Made by a program: the position numbers and the translations under genes
IMG/VR virus record: IMGVR_UViG_3300014590_000001
Coordinates: 128,001-192,000 of that record
Source: a virus
Taxonomy: Duplodnaviria > Caudoviricetes
Reading direction: 5' to 3' (one strand)
DNA: 64,000 nucleotides
Part shown: positions 16,497 to 54,277 of the stretch, one piece after another
Layout: each line of letters starts with the position of its first letter
Numbering within the stretch: position 1 is the first letter of the stretch
Notes under the pieces: model-generated
The model's database searches: none
What the model saw: the letters and a program-made list of their open reading frames with translations, nothing else
Told to the model about the DNA's origin: nothing

Positions 16497-18128
16497 TTAG
16501 CCTTTAGCCAGCAGAGCGCGGAGTTTTTTCTCGCTCATGTTTTCGGCGGCGCGAACTTTCGCAAGACCTTTCTGAACTACGATATCGCGCAGTTCGTCTT
16601 CGTCCAGATCTTCGTAATCGTCGTCTTCGCCTTCTTCAAAATCTTCGTCTTCTTCGTTGCTGTCTTCGCCGTCTTCGTCAGAAACAACTGGTGAGTATTC
16701 TGACAGGCCGGAAATATCTTCGTTGCTAAACGCTACAACTTCTTTACCGCCTTCTTCAATCACCAGCAGATCCGCGTCTTCATCCATGCCGACATAAATC
16801 AGAGTGTCTTCGCCGTCTGTCAGTTTCAGACCAGCAACCAGCGCAGATTCAGGAACGCCCCACAGTTCGGACAGCATGGACAGGTTTTCTTCTGTCACTT
16901 CTGAATCACGTCCGGCTAACTGCTTTTTAGTCAGCGAAACATATTCGTATTCTTCGCCGTCTTCGTCTTCACCGTCTTCAGAATCGTCATCGGAATCTTC
17001 GCCGTCTTCTGAATCGTCTTCATCCTCTTCGTCCTCTTCGGACTCTTCTTCTTCCTCTTCCTCTTCTTCCTCGTCTTCATCTTCATCTTCATCTTCAGCA
17101 ACCAATTCATAGTGGCTCAAAGATCCGGTGGAGATAGTGCGGAATTTTTCGGTTTCGGTGTTGAACAGTACAGCTTTGTTGTTATCGTCAACGCTTGCGC
17201 CGCAGAAAACAAACTGACCATCTTCACCTTCGCGAACCAGCAGAGTGCCAGCAGTCATATCGCTCGCATCAACGCCGAGGTGTTCAGAGATTGCAGCCGC
17301 CAGTTTTTTACCGACAGTTTTACCAACACGCGATTTGATTTTCTTCGCCAGTTCCGGAGAAATTTCATAACCGCCGTTGATTTCTTCAGGCTCAGGCTGC
17401 GCCAGTGCGTATTTGAAATTCATCGTTACGCGAATGTCGCCACCAGTGCGATCAAACTCAGTCGAGTAACCAACTTCGAATGCGTTTTGAATCGCCGCGT
17501 TGTTTTCGTCAAACTTCGCGAGAGAAGAATCTTTCGCGACTGCCATCAGACGTTCAGTAATAACTTTCGCCAACGGTTCGCCAACTTCAGACAGTGACAC
17601 GGTGCCTTTCGGTTTGATACCAAAGTCGCTCATTTCAACGCCAGCGTTTTTAGCGCCACGACGTTTAACAGTGCGACCAGTTGTTTCTTCTACATCAACA
17701 TCCGCAGCTTTGCGGCGAACTTTAGAAGGTTTCTCTTCAACGTCTTCAACGTCTTCAGCAGGTTTGCGACCGGAAGTTTTGCGGCCAGTAGTTTTAGCTG
17801 GCTTGTCTTCAGCAGGTTTGCGACCGGAAGTTTTCTTGCCAGTTGCTTTAGCAGGTTTTTCTAAGAAAGCGTCAGTGCCAACTTTTTTCTGCATCGCTTT
17901 GTCGGAAAATTCAACGTAGCCGTTTCCGGTGTCGTTCAGTTCACGCAGAGACACGTTAGGGATTTCGTAAAACATCGCGCCCTTTTTCGCAACCTGCTTG
18001 CTGTTCACACGAACAGAGCGGTCTGCAACTTTGTAGCCAGTAGCTACAGCAGCGGTGATTTTAGTTTTGGTGCCGTCCAGCAGAACAATTGATTTACCGA
18101 TCAGAGCTTTGTTAGTTGCGATTGCCAT
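16497..18128 (-). CDS. acidic/basic modular protein with internal duplication and C-terminal HeH-like motif
   Basis: 543 aa; AGGAG RBS; KTSGRKPAED repeats; D/E tracts. Confidence 0.85.
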   Translation of the reverse strand: MAIATNKALIGKSIVLLDGTKTKITAAVATGYKVADRSVRVNSKQVAKKGAMFYEIPNVSLRELNDTGNGYVEFSDKAMQKKVGTDAFLEKPAKATGKKTSGRKPAEDKPAKTTGRKTSGRKPAEDVEDVEEKPSKVRRKAADVDVEETTGRTVKRRGAKNAGVEMSDFGIKPKGTVSLSEVGEPLAKVITERLMAVAKDSSLAKFDENNAAIQNAFEVGYSTEFDRTGGDIRVTMNFKYALAQPEPEEINGGYEISPELAKKIKSRVGKTVGKKLAAAISEHLGVDASDMTAGTLLVREGEDGQFVFCGASVDDNNKAVLFNTETEKFRTISTGSLSHYELVAEDEDEDEDEEEEEEEEEESEEDEEDEDDSEDGEDSDDDSEDGEDEDGEEYEYVSLTKKQLAGRDSEVTEENLSMLSELWGVPESALVAGLKLTDGEDTLIYVGMDEDADLLVIEEGGKEVVAFSNEDISGLSEYSPVVSDEDGEDSNEEDEDFEEGEDDDYEDLDEDELRDIVVQKGLAKVRAAENMSEKKLRALLAKG

Positions 18129-18193
18129 GATTATTTCTCCTAAGAAATAGTAGTTGAGGCTTTTAAGTTCGGCACTGCGCCGAGTGAGATTAA

Positions 18194-18252
18194 ATAGTGC
18201 ATGAAACTCTCAGAAGTTTCAATCAACATTTTAGACACTATTTTGCAGAGTT
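18194..18252 (-). promoter_or_regulatory. phage promoter P2 (TTGAAA-17-CACTAT)
   Basis: AACTCTGCAAAATAGTGTCTAAAAT, 28 nt, CACTAT. Confidence 0.8.
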
Positions 18253-18272
18253 CCCAAAGGTGGAGACTTTGC

Positions 18273-18355
18273 AAAAAAGTGTGGGCATCCATTCCCACAT
18301 AAAGGTTCCAAACAAACTACTTGATACTTGAGGGTTCAGAGCGTTGCCGCCCTGT
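18273..18355 (-). ncRNA. candidate small RNA (~83 nt)
   Basis: own promoter P3, 5' GCAA-tetraloop hairpin, 3' terminator GTGGG...CCCAC-AC-T6, no complete ORF inside. Confidence 0.55.
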
Positions 18356-18361
18356 CCTTAT

Positions 18362-18420
18362 ATTCTAGCTGAACGGAGCGGCAAATGCTATCGGTATTTT
18401 GGACACTTATTTGCAGACTT
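18362..18420 (-). promoter_or_regulatory. phage promoter P3 (TAGCAT-17-TAGAAT)
   Basis: AAGTCTGCAAATAAGTGTCCAAAAT, 28 nt, TAGAAT. Confidence 0.8.
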
Positions 18421-18427
18421 TGAAACT

Positions 18428-18976
18428 TCAGCCCTTGCGAGATTTCGCTTCAGGCATCTGCTTTTTAGGTGGAACCGTATATTTCGATTTCTTAGGTTCC
18501 TTGAATTTCTTCATGCCGTGGCGTGTGCCGTGGATTTTGTTAAAACGATACGTTGCATCCGCAATAAAGCAACGCTTCGAGAAACTGTCTTTTTTAGGCA
18601 GAACCGAATCATCGACAATGCCAAGCGCTTTTACTTCAGCGAGCAGATCTTTAAACTCAGGGAAGAAACCGCACTGGTTATTCATGATCTCGTCAGTTTT
18701 GAAAGGATCGATTTCAACATAACGAATCATGTGAAGCATTTCTTTATTCACACCAGTGACCGCCGAAACTTGTTTTTGAACAATGTCAGACGATTTGGAT
18801 AAATCAGCCAGCGCAGCAAATTCTTTTTCGGTCAGGCCGATTGTTTTCAGAATCGCTTTCTTGCTGTCCTTGTCGCTATGTTCGCTCAGGAATAATTCGA
18901 ATGCTTTTGACAAAGCAACAGAGAGCAGAGCGGCTTGTGATTGGGTTGAGGCTTCGGTGAACTTCATTGTAGTCAT
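18428..18976 (-). CDS. hypothetical protein (start may be 18967)
   Basis: 182 aa, first gene after P4. Confidence 0.75.
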   Translation of the reverse strand: MTTMKFTEASTQSQAALLSVALSKAFELFLSEHSDKDSKKAILKTIGLTEKEFAALADLSKSSDIVQKQVSAVTGVNKEMLHMIRYVEIDPFKTDEIMNNQCGFFPEFKDLLAEVKALGIVDDSVLPKKDSFSKRCFIADATYRFNKIHGTRHGMKKFKEPKKSKYTVPPKKQMPEAKSRKG

Positions 18977-19014
18977 CCTTTGTAAGTCTAAGCGGTATTG
19001 CTTAGTGAGTCTTT

Positions 19015-19073
19015 ATAGTATGAAAGTTTCGTGTCCAAAACAACCTGTATTTTGGACACTGTTTTGCAGACTT
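19015..19073 (-). promoter_or_regulatory. phage promoter P4 (TTGTTT-17-TACTAT)
   Basis: AAGTCTGCAAAACAGTGTCCAAAAT, 28 nt, TACTAT. Confidence 0.8.
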
Positions 19074-24372: not shown

Positions 24373-24426
24373 ATAGAACTCCTTTGCAGTCTATATAAAA
24401 GTTTAGGTTAGGTACGGCTTACCCTT

Positions 24427-24485
24427 AGTTTACAGAATAAGCCGTTTTGTTGCCAGCGGTATTTTGGACACTTATTTGTCGAGAT
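24427..24485 (-). promoter_or_regulatory. phage promoter P6 (variant box, TGGCAA-17-TAAACT)
   Basis: ATCTCGACAAATAAGTGTCCAAAAT overlapping upstream stop, 28 nt, TAAACT. Confidence 0.7.
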
Positions 24486-28299: not shown

Positions 28300-28358
28300 A
28301 GTTTACCTAAGCGAAACGGCAAATGCCATCACTATTTTGGACACCAATTTGCAGAGTT
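28300..28358 (-). promoter_or_regulatory. phage promoter P7 (TGGCAT-17-TAAACT)
   Basis: AACTCTGCAAATTGGTGTCCAAAAT, 28 nt, TAAACT. Confidence 0.8.
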
Positions 28359-28376: not shown

Positions 28377-28411
28377 AAAAAGGGAACCTGAAGTGTCCGA
28401 CAGGTTCCCTT
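28377..28411 (-). terminator. intrinsic terminator
   Basis: AAGGGAACCTG...CAGGTTCCCTTTTT. Confidence 0.8.
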
Positions 28412-32206: not shown

Positions 32207-32277
32207 GCTGTAATCCTCCGTTGTGGGAAAGATACAGCGCTTCCCACGGGTTCGCGGTATTGCGTTCCCTGACTTAA

Positions 32278-32336
32278 ATTTTACCTAAGTAAAGGCTCAA
32301 TTCCAAGCGGTATTTTGGACACTTATTTGCAGAGTT
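32278..32336 (-). promoter_or_regulatory. phage promoter P8 (TTGGAA-17-TAAAAT)
   Basis: AACTCTGCAAATAAGTGTCCAAAAT, 28 nt, TAAAAT. Confidence 0.85.
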
Positions 32337-41345: not shown

Positions 41346-41389
41346 ATGGTGGTTTCCTATGGGTTAAAATGACAAAAGGCTTCCCCTAT

Positions 41390-41448
41390 AGAATACAGGA
41401 AAGCCTTTTGGATAGACAGCGGTATTTTGGACACTTATTTGCAGAGTT
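41390..41448 (-). promoter_or_regulatory. phage promoter P9 (TGTCTA-17-TATTCT)
   Basis: AACTCTGCAAATAAGTGTCCAAAAT overlapping kptA stop, 28 nt, TATTCT. Confidence 0.8.
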
Positions 41449-54168: not shown

Positions 54169-54218
54169 GGCGGTTTCCTTTATATAGGTGCAAATGGGCA
54201 GTGCGCCCGTGAGCCTCT

Positions 54219-54277
54219 ATAGTATCAAGGATTTAAGCCAAATTCGAGGGGTATTTTGGACAGAGATTTGCAGAGTT
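54219..54277 (-). promoter_or_regulatory. phage promoter P11 (TCGAAT-17-TACTAT)
   Basis: AACTCTGCAAATCTCTGTCCAAAAT, 28 nt, TACTAT. Confidence 0.8.

What the first reader, a model, noticed from the sequence alone, without database searches (positions are those of the whole stretch)
18273..18420. Stand-alone small RNA gene with its own promoter and terminator
Seen: promoter P3 lies only 168 bp upstream of promoter P2, and between them is a complete terminator (GTGGG-AATGGATG-CCCAC-AC-TTTTTT). The predicted ~83-nt transcript begins with CAGGGCG-GCAA-CGCTCTG (GNRA-capped hairpin). It has a single-stranded middle containing a TCAAGTA direct repeat and a U-rich stretch, then ends in the terminator. 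The only ORF (20 aa) starts at the terminator stem and crosses it. Inference: architecture of an Hfq-type trans-acting sRNA or a protein-sponge RNA made early in infection.
Basis: partly seen in the sequence, partly recalled or inferred. Interest (0 to 1): 0.7.

Follow-up and report, generated by a model that had tools for sequence, protein, structure and literature searches.

The report
Orphan small-RNA unit in jumbo phage
Between two genes of a 257-kb jumbo phage, a host-type promoter fires straight into a terminator and should make an ~83-base non-coding RNA; the unit is real and kept, with structure-preserving changes, in related Dickeya phages, but no expression data exist and its function is unproven.

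Summary
All features lie on the minus strand. P3 is one of 11 copies of a 21-nt box that occurs nowhere else in the 256,657-bp genome. Each box sits 28 nt upstream of a sigma70-type -10 hexamer. P3 is the only copy not followed by a ribosome site and a gene. Its predicted transcript (about 18355 to 18273) has a 7-bp GCAA-capped 5' hairpin, a ~36-nt open linker and a weak terminator with six U.

Dickeya phages JA11/JA13/JA29/JA33 (~78% nt identity) have the same unit, with one compensatory pair change in each hairpin. No small ORF is conserved. Some more distant genera carry analogous units at the same place. There is no Rfam match and no annotation.

The function is unproven. The linker is the least conserved part, no phage mRNA target exceeds shuffled controls, and the U-tail falls one short of the Hfq rule. 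In the window phage the unit looks like a decayed tandem copy of the P2 promoter and leader.

My best reading (0.42) is a chaperone-bound trans-acting sRNA. The main rival (0.30) is a cis by-product of a tandem promoter and a leaky terminator.

The scan noted this same stretch once before, in an overlapping window (e1-5482070), and not on other DNA.

The parts
18396..18416 (-). P3 'box': the 21-nt upstream promoter element CTGCAAATAAGTGTCCAAAAT
   Evidence: An exact copy of the consensus. It is one of 11 copies in the genome, all on the minus strand. It is 19/21 identical in the JA phages.
18385..18390 (-). P3 -35-like hexamer TAGCAT, 17 nt upstream of the -10
   Evidence: Its position matches the T(+6), invariant in 19 box promoters, and G(+8), present in 18 of 19.
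18362..18367 (-). P3 -10 hexamer TAGAAT, 28 nt after the box
   Evidence: The 28-nt spacing is fixed. Hexamer position 2 (A) and position 6 (T) are invariant in 19/19 box promoters.
18273..18355 (-). Predicted ~83-nt non-coding transcript (start inferred 7 nt after the -10; end inferred in the T-run)
   Evidence: Sequence and fold. The same unit occurs in JA33/JA29/JA13. No experimental ends are known.
18337..18354 (-). 5' hairpin: 7-bp stem with a GCAA (GNRA) loop, containing one G-U pair
   Evidence: Found in the MFE and centroid folds. Against JA there is one compensatory G:C to A:U change and one G-U to G-C change. The G-U pair is allowed only on this strand.
18300..18336 (-). Single-stranded linker: TCAAGTA x2 (18331-18318), GTTT x2, then the conserved UGGAACCUUUAU
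   Evidence: Unpaired in the centroid fold. Tandem repeat D5. Only 16/36 positions match JA, with a 9-nt indel. The 3' third is conserved.
18273..18299 (-). Intrinsic terminator: 6-bp stem, 8-nt loop AAUGGAUG (GGA at 18290-18288), one spacer base, then T6
   Evidence: Terminator scan. Hairpin energy is -8.3 kcal/mol, against -14.9 for one typical strong terminator of this phage. One compensatory G:C to A:U change against JA. The loop GGA is invariant.
18235..18282 (.). 22-nt imperfect palindrome: the terminator T-run plus GCAAAGTCTCC is an inverted copy of the first half of the P2 box
   Evidence: Inverted repeat I2, 82% complementary. It also surfaced as a spurious miRNA-model hit. It explains why the DNA just after the terminator is 100% conserved in JA.
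18228..18248 (-). P2 box, the promoter of the 543-aa acidic protein gene (16497-18128)
   Evidence: The -10 CACTAT lies at 18199-18194. A conserved 5' leader hairpin lies at 18183-18169.
18344..18384 (.). Inverted repeat spanning the P3 -10. Its 3' arm overlaps the 5' arm of the RNA hairpin
   Evidence: Inverted repeat I5, 12 nt, 83% complementary. The G-to-A change in JA is compensated in the RNA hairpin, not in this repeat.

Best explanation
This is a real, selectively maintained, non-coding transcription unit in the host-polymerase-dependent (probably early) region of a PaBG/Lu11-group jumbo phage.

**How the RNA is made (inferred).**
- Host sigma70 RNA polymerase starts at P3, at about 18355.
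- It transcribes a stabilising 5' GNRA hairpin, a ~36-nt open linker and a weak intrinsic terminator.
- It releases an RNA of about 80-83 nt.
- The same terminator also ends the upstream operon. The unit therefore resembles a 3'-UTR-embedded sRNA gene with its own internal promoter.

**How the RNA acts (inferred; the weakest step).**
- I think it acts in trans as a small regulatory RNA.
- A host RNA chaperone would hold it through its 3' module: a U-rich stretch, the hairpin and the U-tail. That pattern is Hfq-like rather than ProQ-like.
- It would act on host transcripts rather than phage transcripts.

**Shown here:** the promoter-family membership, the fold, the conservation and the lack of coding potential.

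**Origin (suggested).** In the window phage the unit looks like a decayed tandem copy of the P2 promoter, leader and start codon.
For: - **P3 belongs to a tight promoter family.** There are 11 boxes against 0.2 expected, and they occur only in this 48-kb block, all on one strand. The spacing to the -10 is fixed at 28 nt. The -10 A/T positions and the -35 T are invariant across 19 promoters of two phages, and the -35 G is present in 18 of 19.
- **P3 is the only copy not followed by a ribosome site and a gene**.
- **The unit is conserved in JA33/JA29/JA13.** Identity is 19/21 for the P3 box, 15/20 for hairpin 1 and 22/27 for the terminator. Each hairpin has one compensatory double change, plus one G-U to G-C change.
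- **The G-U pair is strand-specific.** It is a standard pair only in the minus-strand RNA.
- **A closer relative conserves this stretch best.** In run X16, the P3-plus-RNA stretch differs at 3 of 151 positions. The gene downstream differs at 47 of 892 and the gene upstream at 57 of 368 (table 8).
- **No small ORF is conserved.** The window's ATG is absent in JA. The one frame shared with JA shows no third-position excess (5/8/11 differences by codon position), and its C-terminus changes frame between JA strains.
[quoted passage not shown] That is the Hfq-type pattern as opposed to the A-rich ProQ-type pattern (PMC7367173, PMC5558911). By contrast, 19 of 43 predicted terminators of this phage are A-rich there.
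- **Analogous units exist in other genera.** A box promoter followed by a terminator sits at the same locus in phB78-type Alexandravirus, the SNUABM_7 group, Y3 and Yoloswag.
Against: - **No expression evidence.** No discrete transcript has been shown.
- **The linker is poorly conserved.** It is where a seed should lie, yet identity to JA is only 44%, with a 9-nt indel, and it is built from micro-duplications.
- **No phage target stands out.** No phage translation-initiation region pairs better than with shuffled RNA, either alone or jointly in the window phage and JA11. The best summed energy is -43.0, shuffles range from -36.7 to -45.8, and the correlation is r = 0.02.
- **The U-tail is short.** There are six T, and seven or more are reported as needed for stable Hfq binding (PMC5558911).
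- **The U-rich flank is not unique.** 9 of 43 predicted terminators share it.
- **The terminator is weak** (-8.3 kcal/mol, 8-nt loop), so much of P3 transcription may read through.
- **The unit always sits directly upstream of the acidic-protein promoter.** That linkage suits a cis role.
- **Most Alexandravirus phages and Yersinia phage fHe-Yen9-02 lack it**.
- **It resembles the P2 leader.** In the window phage the part after the hairpin aligns to the P2 leader with z = 3.3 (9 of 2000 shuffles reach the score), which suits a relic.
- **Fold energy is unremarkable** (z = -0.58).
Confidence: 0.42

Rival explanations
1. The RNA is a cis-acting by-product. P3 and P2 are tandem promoters for the acidic-protein operon, produced by a partial tandem duplication of promoter, leader and start codon. 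The weak hairpin between them is mainly the terminator or insulator of the upstream operon, and it shields P2. The ~83-nt RNA is just the attenuated fraction of P3 transcription and has no function of its own.
For: - Three direct repeats tie the P3 unit to the P2 unit, at spacings of 168, 151 and 174 nt: box, upstream flank and leader piece.
- In the window phage the part after the hairpin aligns to the P2 leader. UUUGGAAC lies opposite the Shine-Dalgarno UUAGGAG, and ATG 18300 lies opposite the gene's ATG (z = 3.3, 9 of 2000 shuffles).
- The terminator is much weaker than a typical strong terminator of this phage.
- In every genus the unit is glued to the upstream side of P2, while the neighbours further upstream vary.
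- The linker evolves almost freely.
- A terminator followed directly by a box promoter is also seen at 28409/28354.
Against: - The P3 box, the -10 and both hairpins are maintained at ~78% overall divergence, with compensatory and strand-specific (G-U) changes. A dead relic would not keep these.
- An insulating terminator does not need a promoter in front of it.
- The leader similarity is not significant in JA33 (z = -0.45).
Confidence: 0.3
2. The RNA is a decoy for the host global regulator CsrA/RsmA. It would offer one dimer two GGA sites, one displayed in the terminator-hairpin loop and one single-stranded 19 nt upstream (start to start). When made in bulk early in infection, it would relieve CsrA control of host metabolism.
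For: - The loop GGA is invariant while the rest of the loop and the stem change: AAUGGAUG here, AGGGAA in JA33, AAGGAA in JA29.
- These loops resemble the CsrB-type repeat and the SELEX consensus, where GGA lies in a hairpin loop (PMC7652899).
- The second site, UGGAA, is invariant. Its spacing is conserved and lies within the 10-63 nt bridging range (PMC7652899).
- The loop is unusually large for this phage's terminators, and by my reading of the listed loops only about 2 of 43 predicted terminators carry GGA there.
- phB78 displays GAGGAG in the loop of its 5' hairpin.
Against: - There are only two or three GGA motifs, against far more in CsrB/RsmB-type RNAs (from memory).
- About 1.3 GGA would be expected by chance in 84 nt.
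- The upstream GGAA is part of a GAAACUUUU-like context that recurs before several ordinary terminators of this phage.
- In the window phage it aligns to the relic of the Shine-Dalgarno sequence.
- The Y3 and SNUABM_7-group units have no GGA at all.
- No CsrB/Rsm family matched in Rfam.
Confidence: 0.1
3. The unit is an antitermination-type leader. P3 transcripts normally stop at the hairpin, like the lambda pR'-tR' 6S RNA or nut/put leaders. A phage factor would let them read through into the acidic-protein operon later in infection.
For: - A promoter followed closely by a terminator upstream of an operon is the classic lambda late layout (established knowledge).
- The hairpin's 3' arm, CGCUCUGA, resembles lambda boxA CGCUCUUA (boxA sequence quoted from memory).
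- The weak terminator would be easy to override.
Against: - A complete promoter (P2) lies between the terminator and the genes, so read-through is not needed.
- The boxA-like string is base-paired inside the hairpin, and in JA it is UGCCCUAC.
- There is no -10-like pause element in the first 25 nt.
- No antiterminator gene was identified, and none was searched for specifically.
Confidence: 0.06
4. The unit encodes a small protein: either the 20-aa ORF from ATG 18300, or the 52-aa frame from GTG 18298.
For: - Both ORFs exist.
- The 52-aa frame is also open in JA33, and a 3-nt insertion in JA13 keeps it in frame.
Against: - The ATG is absent in JA.
- There is no Shine-Dalgarno sequence.
- The frame runs through the terminator and the whole P2 promoter.
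- Differences by codon position are 5/8/11, which is not significant.
- The C-terminus changes frame among JA33, JA13 and JA29.
Confidence: 0.03

Closest known systems
3'-UTR-embedded enterobacterial sRNAs with their own internal promoter (MicL and DapZ type; from memory)
   Same: The promoter lies downstream of a stop codon. The sRNA shares the Rho-independent terminator of the upstream mRNA. It is short and has a U-rich stretch before the terminator hairpin.
   Different: Those RNAs are host-encoded, are proven to bind Hfq and have conserved seeds. This one is phage-encoded, has a variable linker, has only six U, and has no shown chaperone or target.
Lambda OOP RNA (77 nt; from memory) and lambda LPR1/PreS sRNA (bioRxiv 10.1101/2024.10.31.621285)
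   Same: Both are short phage-encoded RNAs. OOP has its own promoter and terminator. By its abstract, the newly described lambda sRNA regulates key E. coli genes and helps the infection cycle; the work used RIL-seq.
   Different: OOP is antisense to cII, whereas nothing is encoded opposite this RNA. Both lambda RNAs come from a temperate siphovirus. There is no sequence or Rfam relationship.
Lambda pR'-tR' 6S RNA and nut/put leaders (from memory)
   Same: A constitutive promoter runs into a nearby terminator just upstream of an operon.
   Different: Here a second full promoter follows the terminator. No boxA/boxB, Q-binding element or pause element is conserved.
Non-coding RNAs reported for virulent and jumbo Pseudomonas phages (phiKZ ncRNAs, PMC13282480; PAK_P4 antisense RNAs, PMC12197685)
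   Same: They are non-coding RNAs of virulent phages. Their functions are mostly unknown.
   Different: They come from a different phage group and show no sequence similarity. phiKZ uses its own RNA polymerases, whereas this group relies on the host enzyme (PMC7412058). The PAK_P4 RNAs described are antisense RNAs.
CsrB/RsmB and small CsrA-binding sRNAs such as McaS (PMC7652899; McaS from memory)
   Same: GGA is displayed in a hairpin loop, with a second GGA within bridging distance.
   Different: There are only two or three sites. No Rfam match was found. The motifs are not shared by the analogous units in Y3 or the SNUABM_7 group.

Membership tests
Hfq-binding class I sRNA (Hfq-binding module of Ishikawa 2012, as summarised in PMC5558911 and PMC7367173) | Rho-independent terminator hairpin at the 3' end | tested here: met
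   The stem is conserved, with one compensatory change.
Hfq-binding class I sRNA | Seven or more T residues after the hairpin (PMC5558911) | tested here: not met
   Six T in the window (18278-18273) and six in JA33/JA29/JA13.
Hfq-binding class I sRNA | U-rich single-stranded sequence directly 5' of the terminator hairpin (A-rich there marks ProQ ligands, PMC7367173) | tested here: met
   CCUUUAU in the window and CUUUUU in JA. This is not exclusive: 9 of 43 predicted terminators of the phage are also U-rich there, and 19 of 43 are A-rich.
Hfq-binding class I sRNA | Conserved single-stranded seed complementary to target mRNAs | tested here: inconclusive
   The linker is 44% identical to JA. No phage translation-initiation region exceeds shuffled controls. 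Host transcripts could not be tested because the host genome is unknown or not available.
Hfq-binding class I sRNA | Physical association with Hfq and dependence on it | not testable with these tools
   Needs co-immunoprecipitation, CLIP or RIL-seq in infected cells.
CsrA/RsmA-sequestering RNAs (CsrB, RsmB, RsmX/Y/Z) | Many GGA motifs, mostly in hairpin loops | tested here: not met
   There are only two or three GGA motifs: 18309-18307, 18290-18288, and one at the stem-loop edge. One lies in a loop.
CsrA/RsmA-sequestering RNAs | Match to the curated covariance models | tested here: not met
   No Rfam match at gathering score anywhere in the window. At E up to 10 there were only a spurious miRNA-model hit and a weak hit to the freshwater-2 RNA model in the P2 leader.
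Lambda-type nut/Q antitermination leader | Single-stranded boxA plus a boxB hairpin, or a Q-binding site with a promoter-proximal pause. The terminator is followed directly by the regulated genes. | tested here: not met
   The boxA-like CGCUCUGA is paired inside the hairpin and is not conserved in JA. P2 lies between the terminator and the genes.
Box promoter family of this phage (sigma70-type with a conserved upstream element) | 21-nt box, -35-like T-n-G 5 nt later, 17-nt spacer, and a -10 T-A-n-n-(A/C)-T exactly 28 nt after the box | tested here: met
   P3 has the consensus box, TAGCAT and TAGAAT at the family positions.
Small protein gene | Conserved start codon, ribosome site and reading frame with a codon-position bias | tested here: not met

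The most novel reading that the evidence does not exclude
The RNA is an early phage decoy. It is made in bulk from a strong host-type promoter. It ties up a global host RNA-binding regulator: CsrA/RsmA through the loop GGA and the upstream GGA, or Hfq through the 3' module. In this way it would reprogramme host post-transcriptional control within minutes of infection. No chaperone-titrating RNA is known to me for a virulent phage.
Probability: 0.1. Interest if true: 0.75.

Novelty: new member of a known kind. Interest (0 to 1): 0.45.

Why it matters
- Small RNAs of virulent phages, and of jumbo phages in particular, are barely charted. A 2025 review of phage-derived sRNAs does not mention jumbo phages at all (PMC12197685).
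- This is a clean candidate that can be tested directly. Its promoter, start and end are predicted to the nucleotide.
- It is unannotated and absent from Rfam.
- It is conserved in cultivable Dickeya solani phages (JA11, JA13, JA29, JA33), so standard genetics and RNA mapping are possible.
- It also illustrates a route by which phage sRNA genes may arise: partial tandem duplication of a promoter and leader that then acquires a terminator.
- If the RNA turns out to titrate a host chaperone, or to target host mRNAs, it would add an RNA layer to host take-over by phages that depend on the host polymerase.

Tried and rejected
- **Rfam.** Nothing reached gathering score in the whole window. At E up to 10 around the locus there were only a spurious mir-4662 hit, which in fact reveals the DNA palindrome at 18235-18282, and a weak hit to the freshwater-2 RNA model in the P2 leader.
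- **tRNA/tmRNA.** None in the window.
- **Phage mRNA targets.** Duplex energies of the linker against 408 called initiation regions gave a best real value of -30.5, while shuffled minima ranged from -24.6 to -30.9. A joint test on 222 orthologous initiation regions of this phage and JA11 showed no signal. Pairing with the adjacent P2 leader in six phages gave z from -1.6 to +1.5.
- **Replication-origin primer.** The cumulative GC-skew extremes lie at about 86 kb and 198 kb, not at 146 kb.
- **Host sRNA mimicry.** There was no blastn match in 5,426 E. coli genomes. The true host could not be searched.
- **Phage-encoded partners.** No CsrA, Hfq, sigma-70 region 2, T7-type or multisubunit RNA polymerase domains were found in the genome.
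- **Covariance model.** A model built from the three close sequences found only the window's own locus among the loci searched, plus a weak hit (E 0.035, rough) in a Rivsvirus-like contig. Homology across genera therefore rests on synteny and on the similar terminator tail.
- **Reads.** All four runs were Logan contigs, so they give no starts, ends or expression levels. In RNA library X16, one contig ends at 18295 and the next begins at 18248, which leaves the terminator uncovered. A second RNA library stops elsewhere (18332). I count neither as evidence. The apparent absence of differences in run X1 between 18209 and 18578 comes from a truncated list, so I do not use it.
- **CRISPR-repeat mimic and ToxI-like repeat ideas.** I considered both from memory and dropped them. 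The resemblance is limited to a hairpin plus AACC, or to a 7-nt repeat, and it is not conserved in JA.
- **Spot 42 complementarity.** I recalled a 9-nt match from memory for the JA RNA. That is the level expected by chance, and it is not shared by the window RNA.
- **N-terminal domain of the downstream 543-aa protein.** The model is all-beta (pLDDT 82). It gave only weak matches to PRC-barrel proteins (E 0.1-0.8), so it gives no link to RNA.

Full report
**What the window is**

The window is bases 128001-192000 of a 256,657-bp viral record with direct terminal repeats. Its closest GenBank relatives are the Dickeya solani jumbo phages JA11, JA13, JA29 and JA33 (genus Salmondvirus), at about 78% nucleotide identity around the locus. 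Next come Erwinia and Dickeya phages of Alexandravirus, Rivsvirus, Sasquatchvirus (Y3) and Yoloswagvirus, and Yersinia phage fHe-Yen9-02.

The literature places these phages in the PaBG/Lu11 group. That paper reports sigma-like factor genes for the group but no phage RNA polymerase (PMC7412058). I found no T7-type or multisubunit polymerase domain in this genome either. All genes around the finding lie on the minus strand and have no known function.

**Checking the observation**

Read on the minus strand, the order of features is as follows.
- Stop codon of a 182-aa gene, at 18428.
- P3 box, 18416-18396.
- -10 hexamer TAGAAT, 18367-18362.
- Hairpin CAGGGCG-GCAA-CGCTCTG, 18354-18337.
- Open stretch with TCAAGTA x2 and GTTT x2.
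- Terminator: stem 18299-18294 / 18285-18280, loop AATGGATG, T6 at 18278-18273.
- P2 box, 18248-18228.
- A ~60-nt leader, then the ATG (18128) of a 543-aa acidic protein.

The two boxes are 168 bp apart. The 20-aa ORF starts at ATG 18300 and crosses the terminator.

**Is P3 a real promoter?**

The box pattern has 11 matches in the window against 0.2 expected. These are the only copies in the whole genome. All are on the minus strand, within 48 kb. JA11 has eight or nine copies, again on one strand within about 47 kb.

I aligned 19 boxes from the two phages. An invariant T at +6 and a G at +8 (18 of 19) form a -35-like T-n-G. Seventeen nucleotides later comes a hexamer with A at +30 and T at +34 in 19 of 19 promoters, and T at +29 in 15 of 19.

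This is the geometry of a sigma70 promoter. The box occupies roughly -37 to -57, where UP elements and activators act. That last point rests on established knowledge; which factor binds the box is not shown.

Ten of the 11 promoters are followed within 40-100 nt by a ribosome site and a gene. P3 alone is followed by a terminator. The start at A 18355 is inferred from the usual 7-nt distance from the -10.

**The RNA itself**

The minimum-energy and centroid folds give a 5' hairpin starting at +2, an open middle and the terminator hairpin. Overall stability does not differ from shuffled sequence (z = -0.58), so fold energy alone is not evidence.

The terminator hairpin has -8.3 kcal/mol, against -14.9 for one typical GGGTGGC...GCTGCCC terminator of this phage. 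Some read-through is therefore likely.

**Conservation in close relatives**

JA33, JA13 and JA29 have the same layout upstream of the orthologous gene. Identity to the window, by segment:

| Segment | Identity to JA |
|---|---|
| P3 box | 19/21 |
| Hairpin 1 | 15/20 |
| Linker | 16/36, with a 9-nt indel |
| Terminator | 22/27 |
| DNA just after the terminator | nearly invariant |

RNAalifold finds 13 pairs. One pair in each hairpin has changed on both sides (G:C to A:U), and one G-U has become G-C. The G-U pair is a standard pair only on the minus-strand transcript, which points to the RNA rather than to a DNA cruciform. Only two independent lineages are available, so this is supportive rather than statistically strong.

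In run X16, a relative about 5% diverged in the flanking acidic-protein gene carries the P3-plus-RNA stretch with 3 differences in 151 nt. The acidic-protein side has 47 in 892, and the upstream gene has 57 in 368 (table 8).

The JA records annotate nothing in this stretch.

**Coding potential**

- ATG 18300 is missing in JA.
- One 52-55-aa frame is open in both phages, but it runs through the terminator, the P2 box, the P2 -10 and the leader.
- It shows no significant codon-position bias (5/8/11).
- Its end changes frame among the JA strains.

I regard it as an accident of constrained non-coding DNA.

**Wider family**

The long gap upstream of the acidic-protein gene recurs across genera.
- **With an analogous unit.** A box promoter followed by a short gene-free stretch and a terminator is present in phB78-type Alexandravirus (two metagenome contigs and pEa_SNUABM_30), the SNUABM_7 group, Y3 and Yoloswag. 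Predicted RNAs are 54-126 nt.
- **Shared details.** The Y3 and phB78 units also begin with a hairpin at +1/+2. The phB78 stem shares AGGGCG/CGCUCU, including the same G-U, with the window. The terminator tail CCACAC...CUUUUUGCA(A/G)AG is shared between the window and Yoloswag.
- **Without the unit.** Most Alexandravirus phages (AD1 type), a misbinned MAG contig and fHe-Yen9-02 lack it.
- **Limits.** A covariance model built from the three close sequences did not recover the distant units. Their common descent is therefore plausible but not shown.

**Origin**

Within the window, three direct repeats link the P3 unit to the P2 unit: box, upstream flank and a leader piece.

The part of the RNA after the hairpin aligns to the P2 leader. 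UUUGGAAC lies opposite the Shine-Dalgarno UUAGGAG, and ATG 18300 lies opposite the gene's ATG. The score is reached by 9 of 2000 shuffles (z = 3.3). The same test is not significant in JA33.

In the window phage the unit thus looks like a decayed tandem copy of the P2 promoter, leader and start codon that acquired a terminator.

Relative to JA, the window phage also carries an extra cassette (box promoter at 19069 plus the 182-aa gene) inserted upstream of P3.

**Mechanism**

Shown here: a promoter-family member, a conserved fold, no coding capacity, and purifying selection on the promoter and both hairpins. Everything about what the RNA does is inference.

For a chaperone-bound trans-acting sRNA:
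- The 3' module (U-rich stretch, hairpin, U-tail) has the Hfq-type pattern rather than the ProQ-type pattern (PMC7367173).
- The unit is laid out like known 3'-UTR sRNAs that have their own promoters.

Against it:
- The tail has six U, where seven or more are reported as needed (PMC5558911).
- The linker is the least conserved part.
- No phage target emerges.

For the cis by-product reading (tandem promoter plus leaky insulating terminator):
- It fits the weak terminator, the strict linkage to P2, the free-running linker and the duplication origin.
- It does not explain why a promoter in front of a terminator is kept, or why the RNA hairpin co-varies.

For the CsrA/RsmA-decoy reading:
- It rests on an invariant GGA in an unusually large terminator loop, plus a second GGA 19 nt upstream (PMC7652899).
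- The motifs are few. One is the Shine-Dalgarno relic, and two of the analogous units have none.

My weights are: trans-acting sRNA 0.42, cis by-product 0.30, CsrA decoy 0.10, antitermination leader 0.06, peptide 0.03, and the remainder unknown.

**Verdict**

This is a new, unannotated candidate member of a known kind (phage-encoded small RNAs). It is of moderate interest, and it can be tested directly in the cultivable JA phages.

Noticed in passing
window 6768-54273, minus strand (11 sites); JA11 record 200796-247237: A family of box promoters has two phased CAAAAT tracts in a 21-nt box, a -35-like T-n-G, a 17-nt spacer and a -10 T-A-n-n-(A/C)-T exactly 28 nt after the box. The family is confined to one ~48-kb block, all on one strand, in both phages. 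The box sits where UP elements or activators act; which factor binds it is unknown.
   Followed up: partly
window 18235-18282: The terminator's T-run plus GCAAAGTCTCC forms a 22-nt imperfect palindrome with the first half of the P2 box (an inverted half-box). The same TTTTGCA...TGCAAAA arrangement is present upstream of P2 in Yoloswag and in Rivsvirus phages. It may be an operator for a box-binding factor.
   Followed up: partly
window 18428-19069 versus L001/L017: The box promoter at 19069 and the 182-aa gene form a cassette that is absent from the JA phages. There, P3 directly follows the homologue of the 121-aa membrane-like protein. Box promoters may therefore flank mobile gene cassettes.
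   Followed up: partly
window 18169-18183 and about 54215-54230, minus strand: Two box-promoter leaders start with near-identical hairpins (CTCAC, then a 4-5-bp GC stem with a GCAGT or GCACT loop). P2 leaders in all genera also start with a hairpin within a few nt of the predicted start. A 5'-terminal hairpin therefore seems to be a general feature of these transcripts.
   Followed up: no
window 41380-41420, 24420-24450, 28300-28330 and 32270-32300, minus strand: Inverted repeats span the -10 of several box promoters, with the 5' arm in the spacer and the 3' arm at the start site. The one at 41444 looks like a full terminator (12-bp stem plus a T-rich tail) whose loop holds the next promoter's -10.
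   Followed up: no
whole genome: Most strong predicted terminators share a near-identical stem, GGGTGGC-(UUCG-like loop)-GCTGCCC. They are often preceded by an A-rich run. This stereotyped terminator family recurs around the genome on both strands.
   Followed up: no
L033 about 2230-2290 (Yoloswag); L031 and L016 about 2200-2260 (Rivsvirus): The long terminator hairpin upstream of P2 carries a conserved loop sequence, ATGTCCGATGA(A)TACGCG, in two genera. It is not a conserved ORF, because a 1-nt indel follows the fourth codon. phB78 has a similar string in its second hairpin.
   Followed up: no
L031 about 2090-2170, L033 about 2130-2170, L032 about 2250-2290, L019 about 2270-2310: A conserved element, AAAGTG(Y)TCT ... 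GCTTTA(C/A)AAAG, follows the first T-run upstream of P2 in several Erwinia phage genera. Its function is unknown, and no such T-run-linked motif recurs elsewhere in the window genome.
   Followed up: partly
window 17859-18128, minus strand (N-terminal 90 aa of the 543-aa acidic protein): The conserved N-terminal domain is predicted to be all-beta (seven strands, pLDDT 82). It gives only weak matches (E 0.1-0.8), almost all to PRC-barrel proteins: photosynthetic reaction-centre H subunit, RimM, CdvA and archaeal PRC proteins.
   Followed up: partly
L008 1177-1329 (Dickeya phage AD1) and other Alexandravirus loci: Where the orphan RNA unit is absent, the upstream neighbour ends in (or is) a ~50-aa module with the motif KIIKPEAAAKL...L..YY. 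A hairpin without a T-run follows, directly before P2.
   Followed up: no
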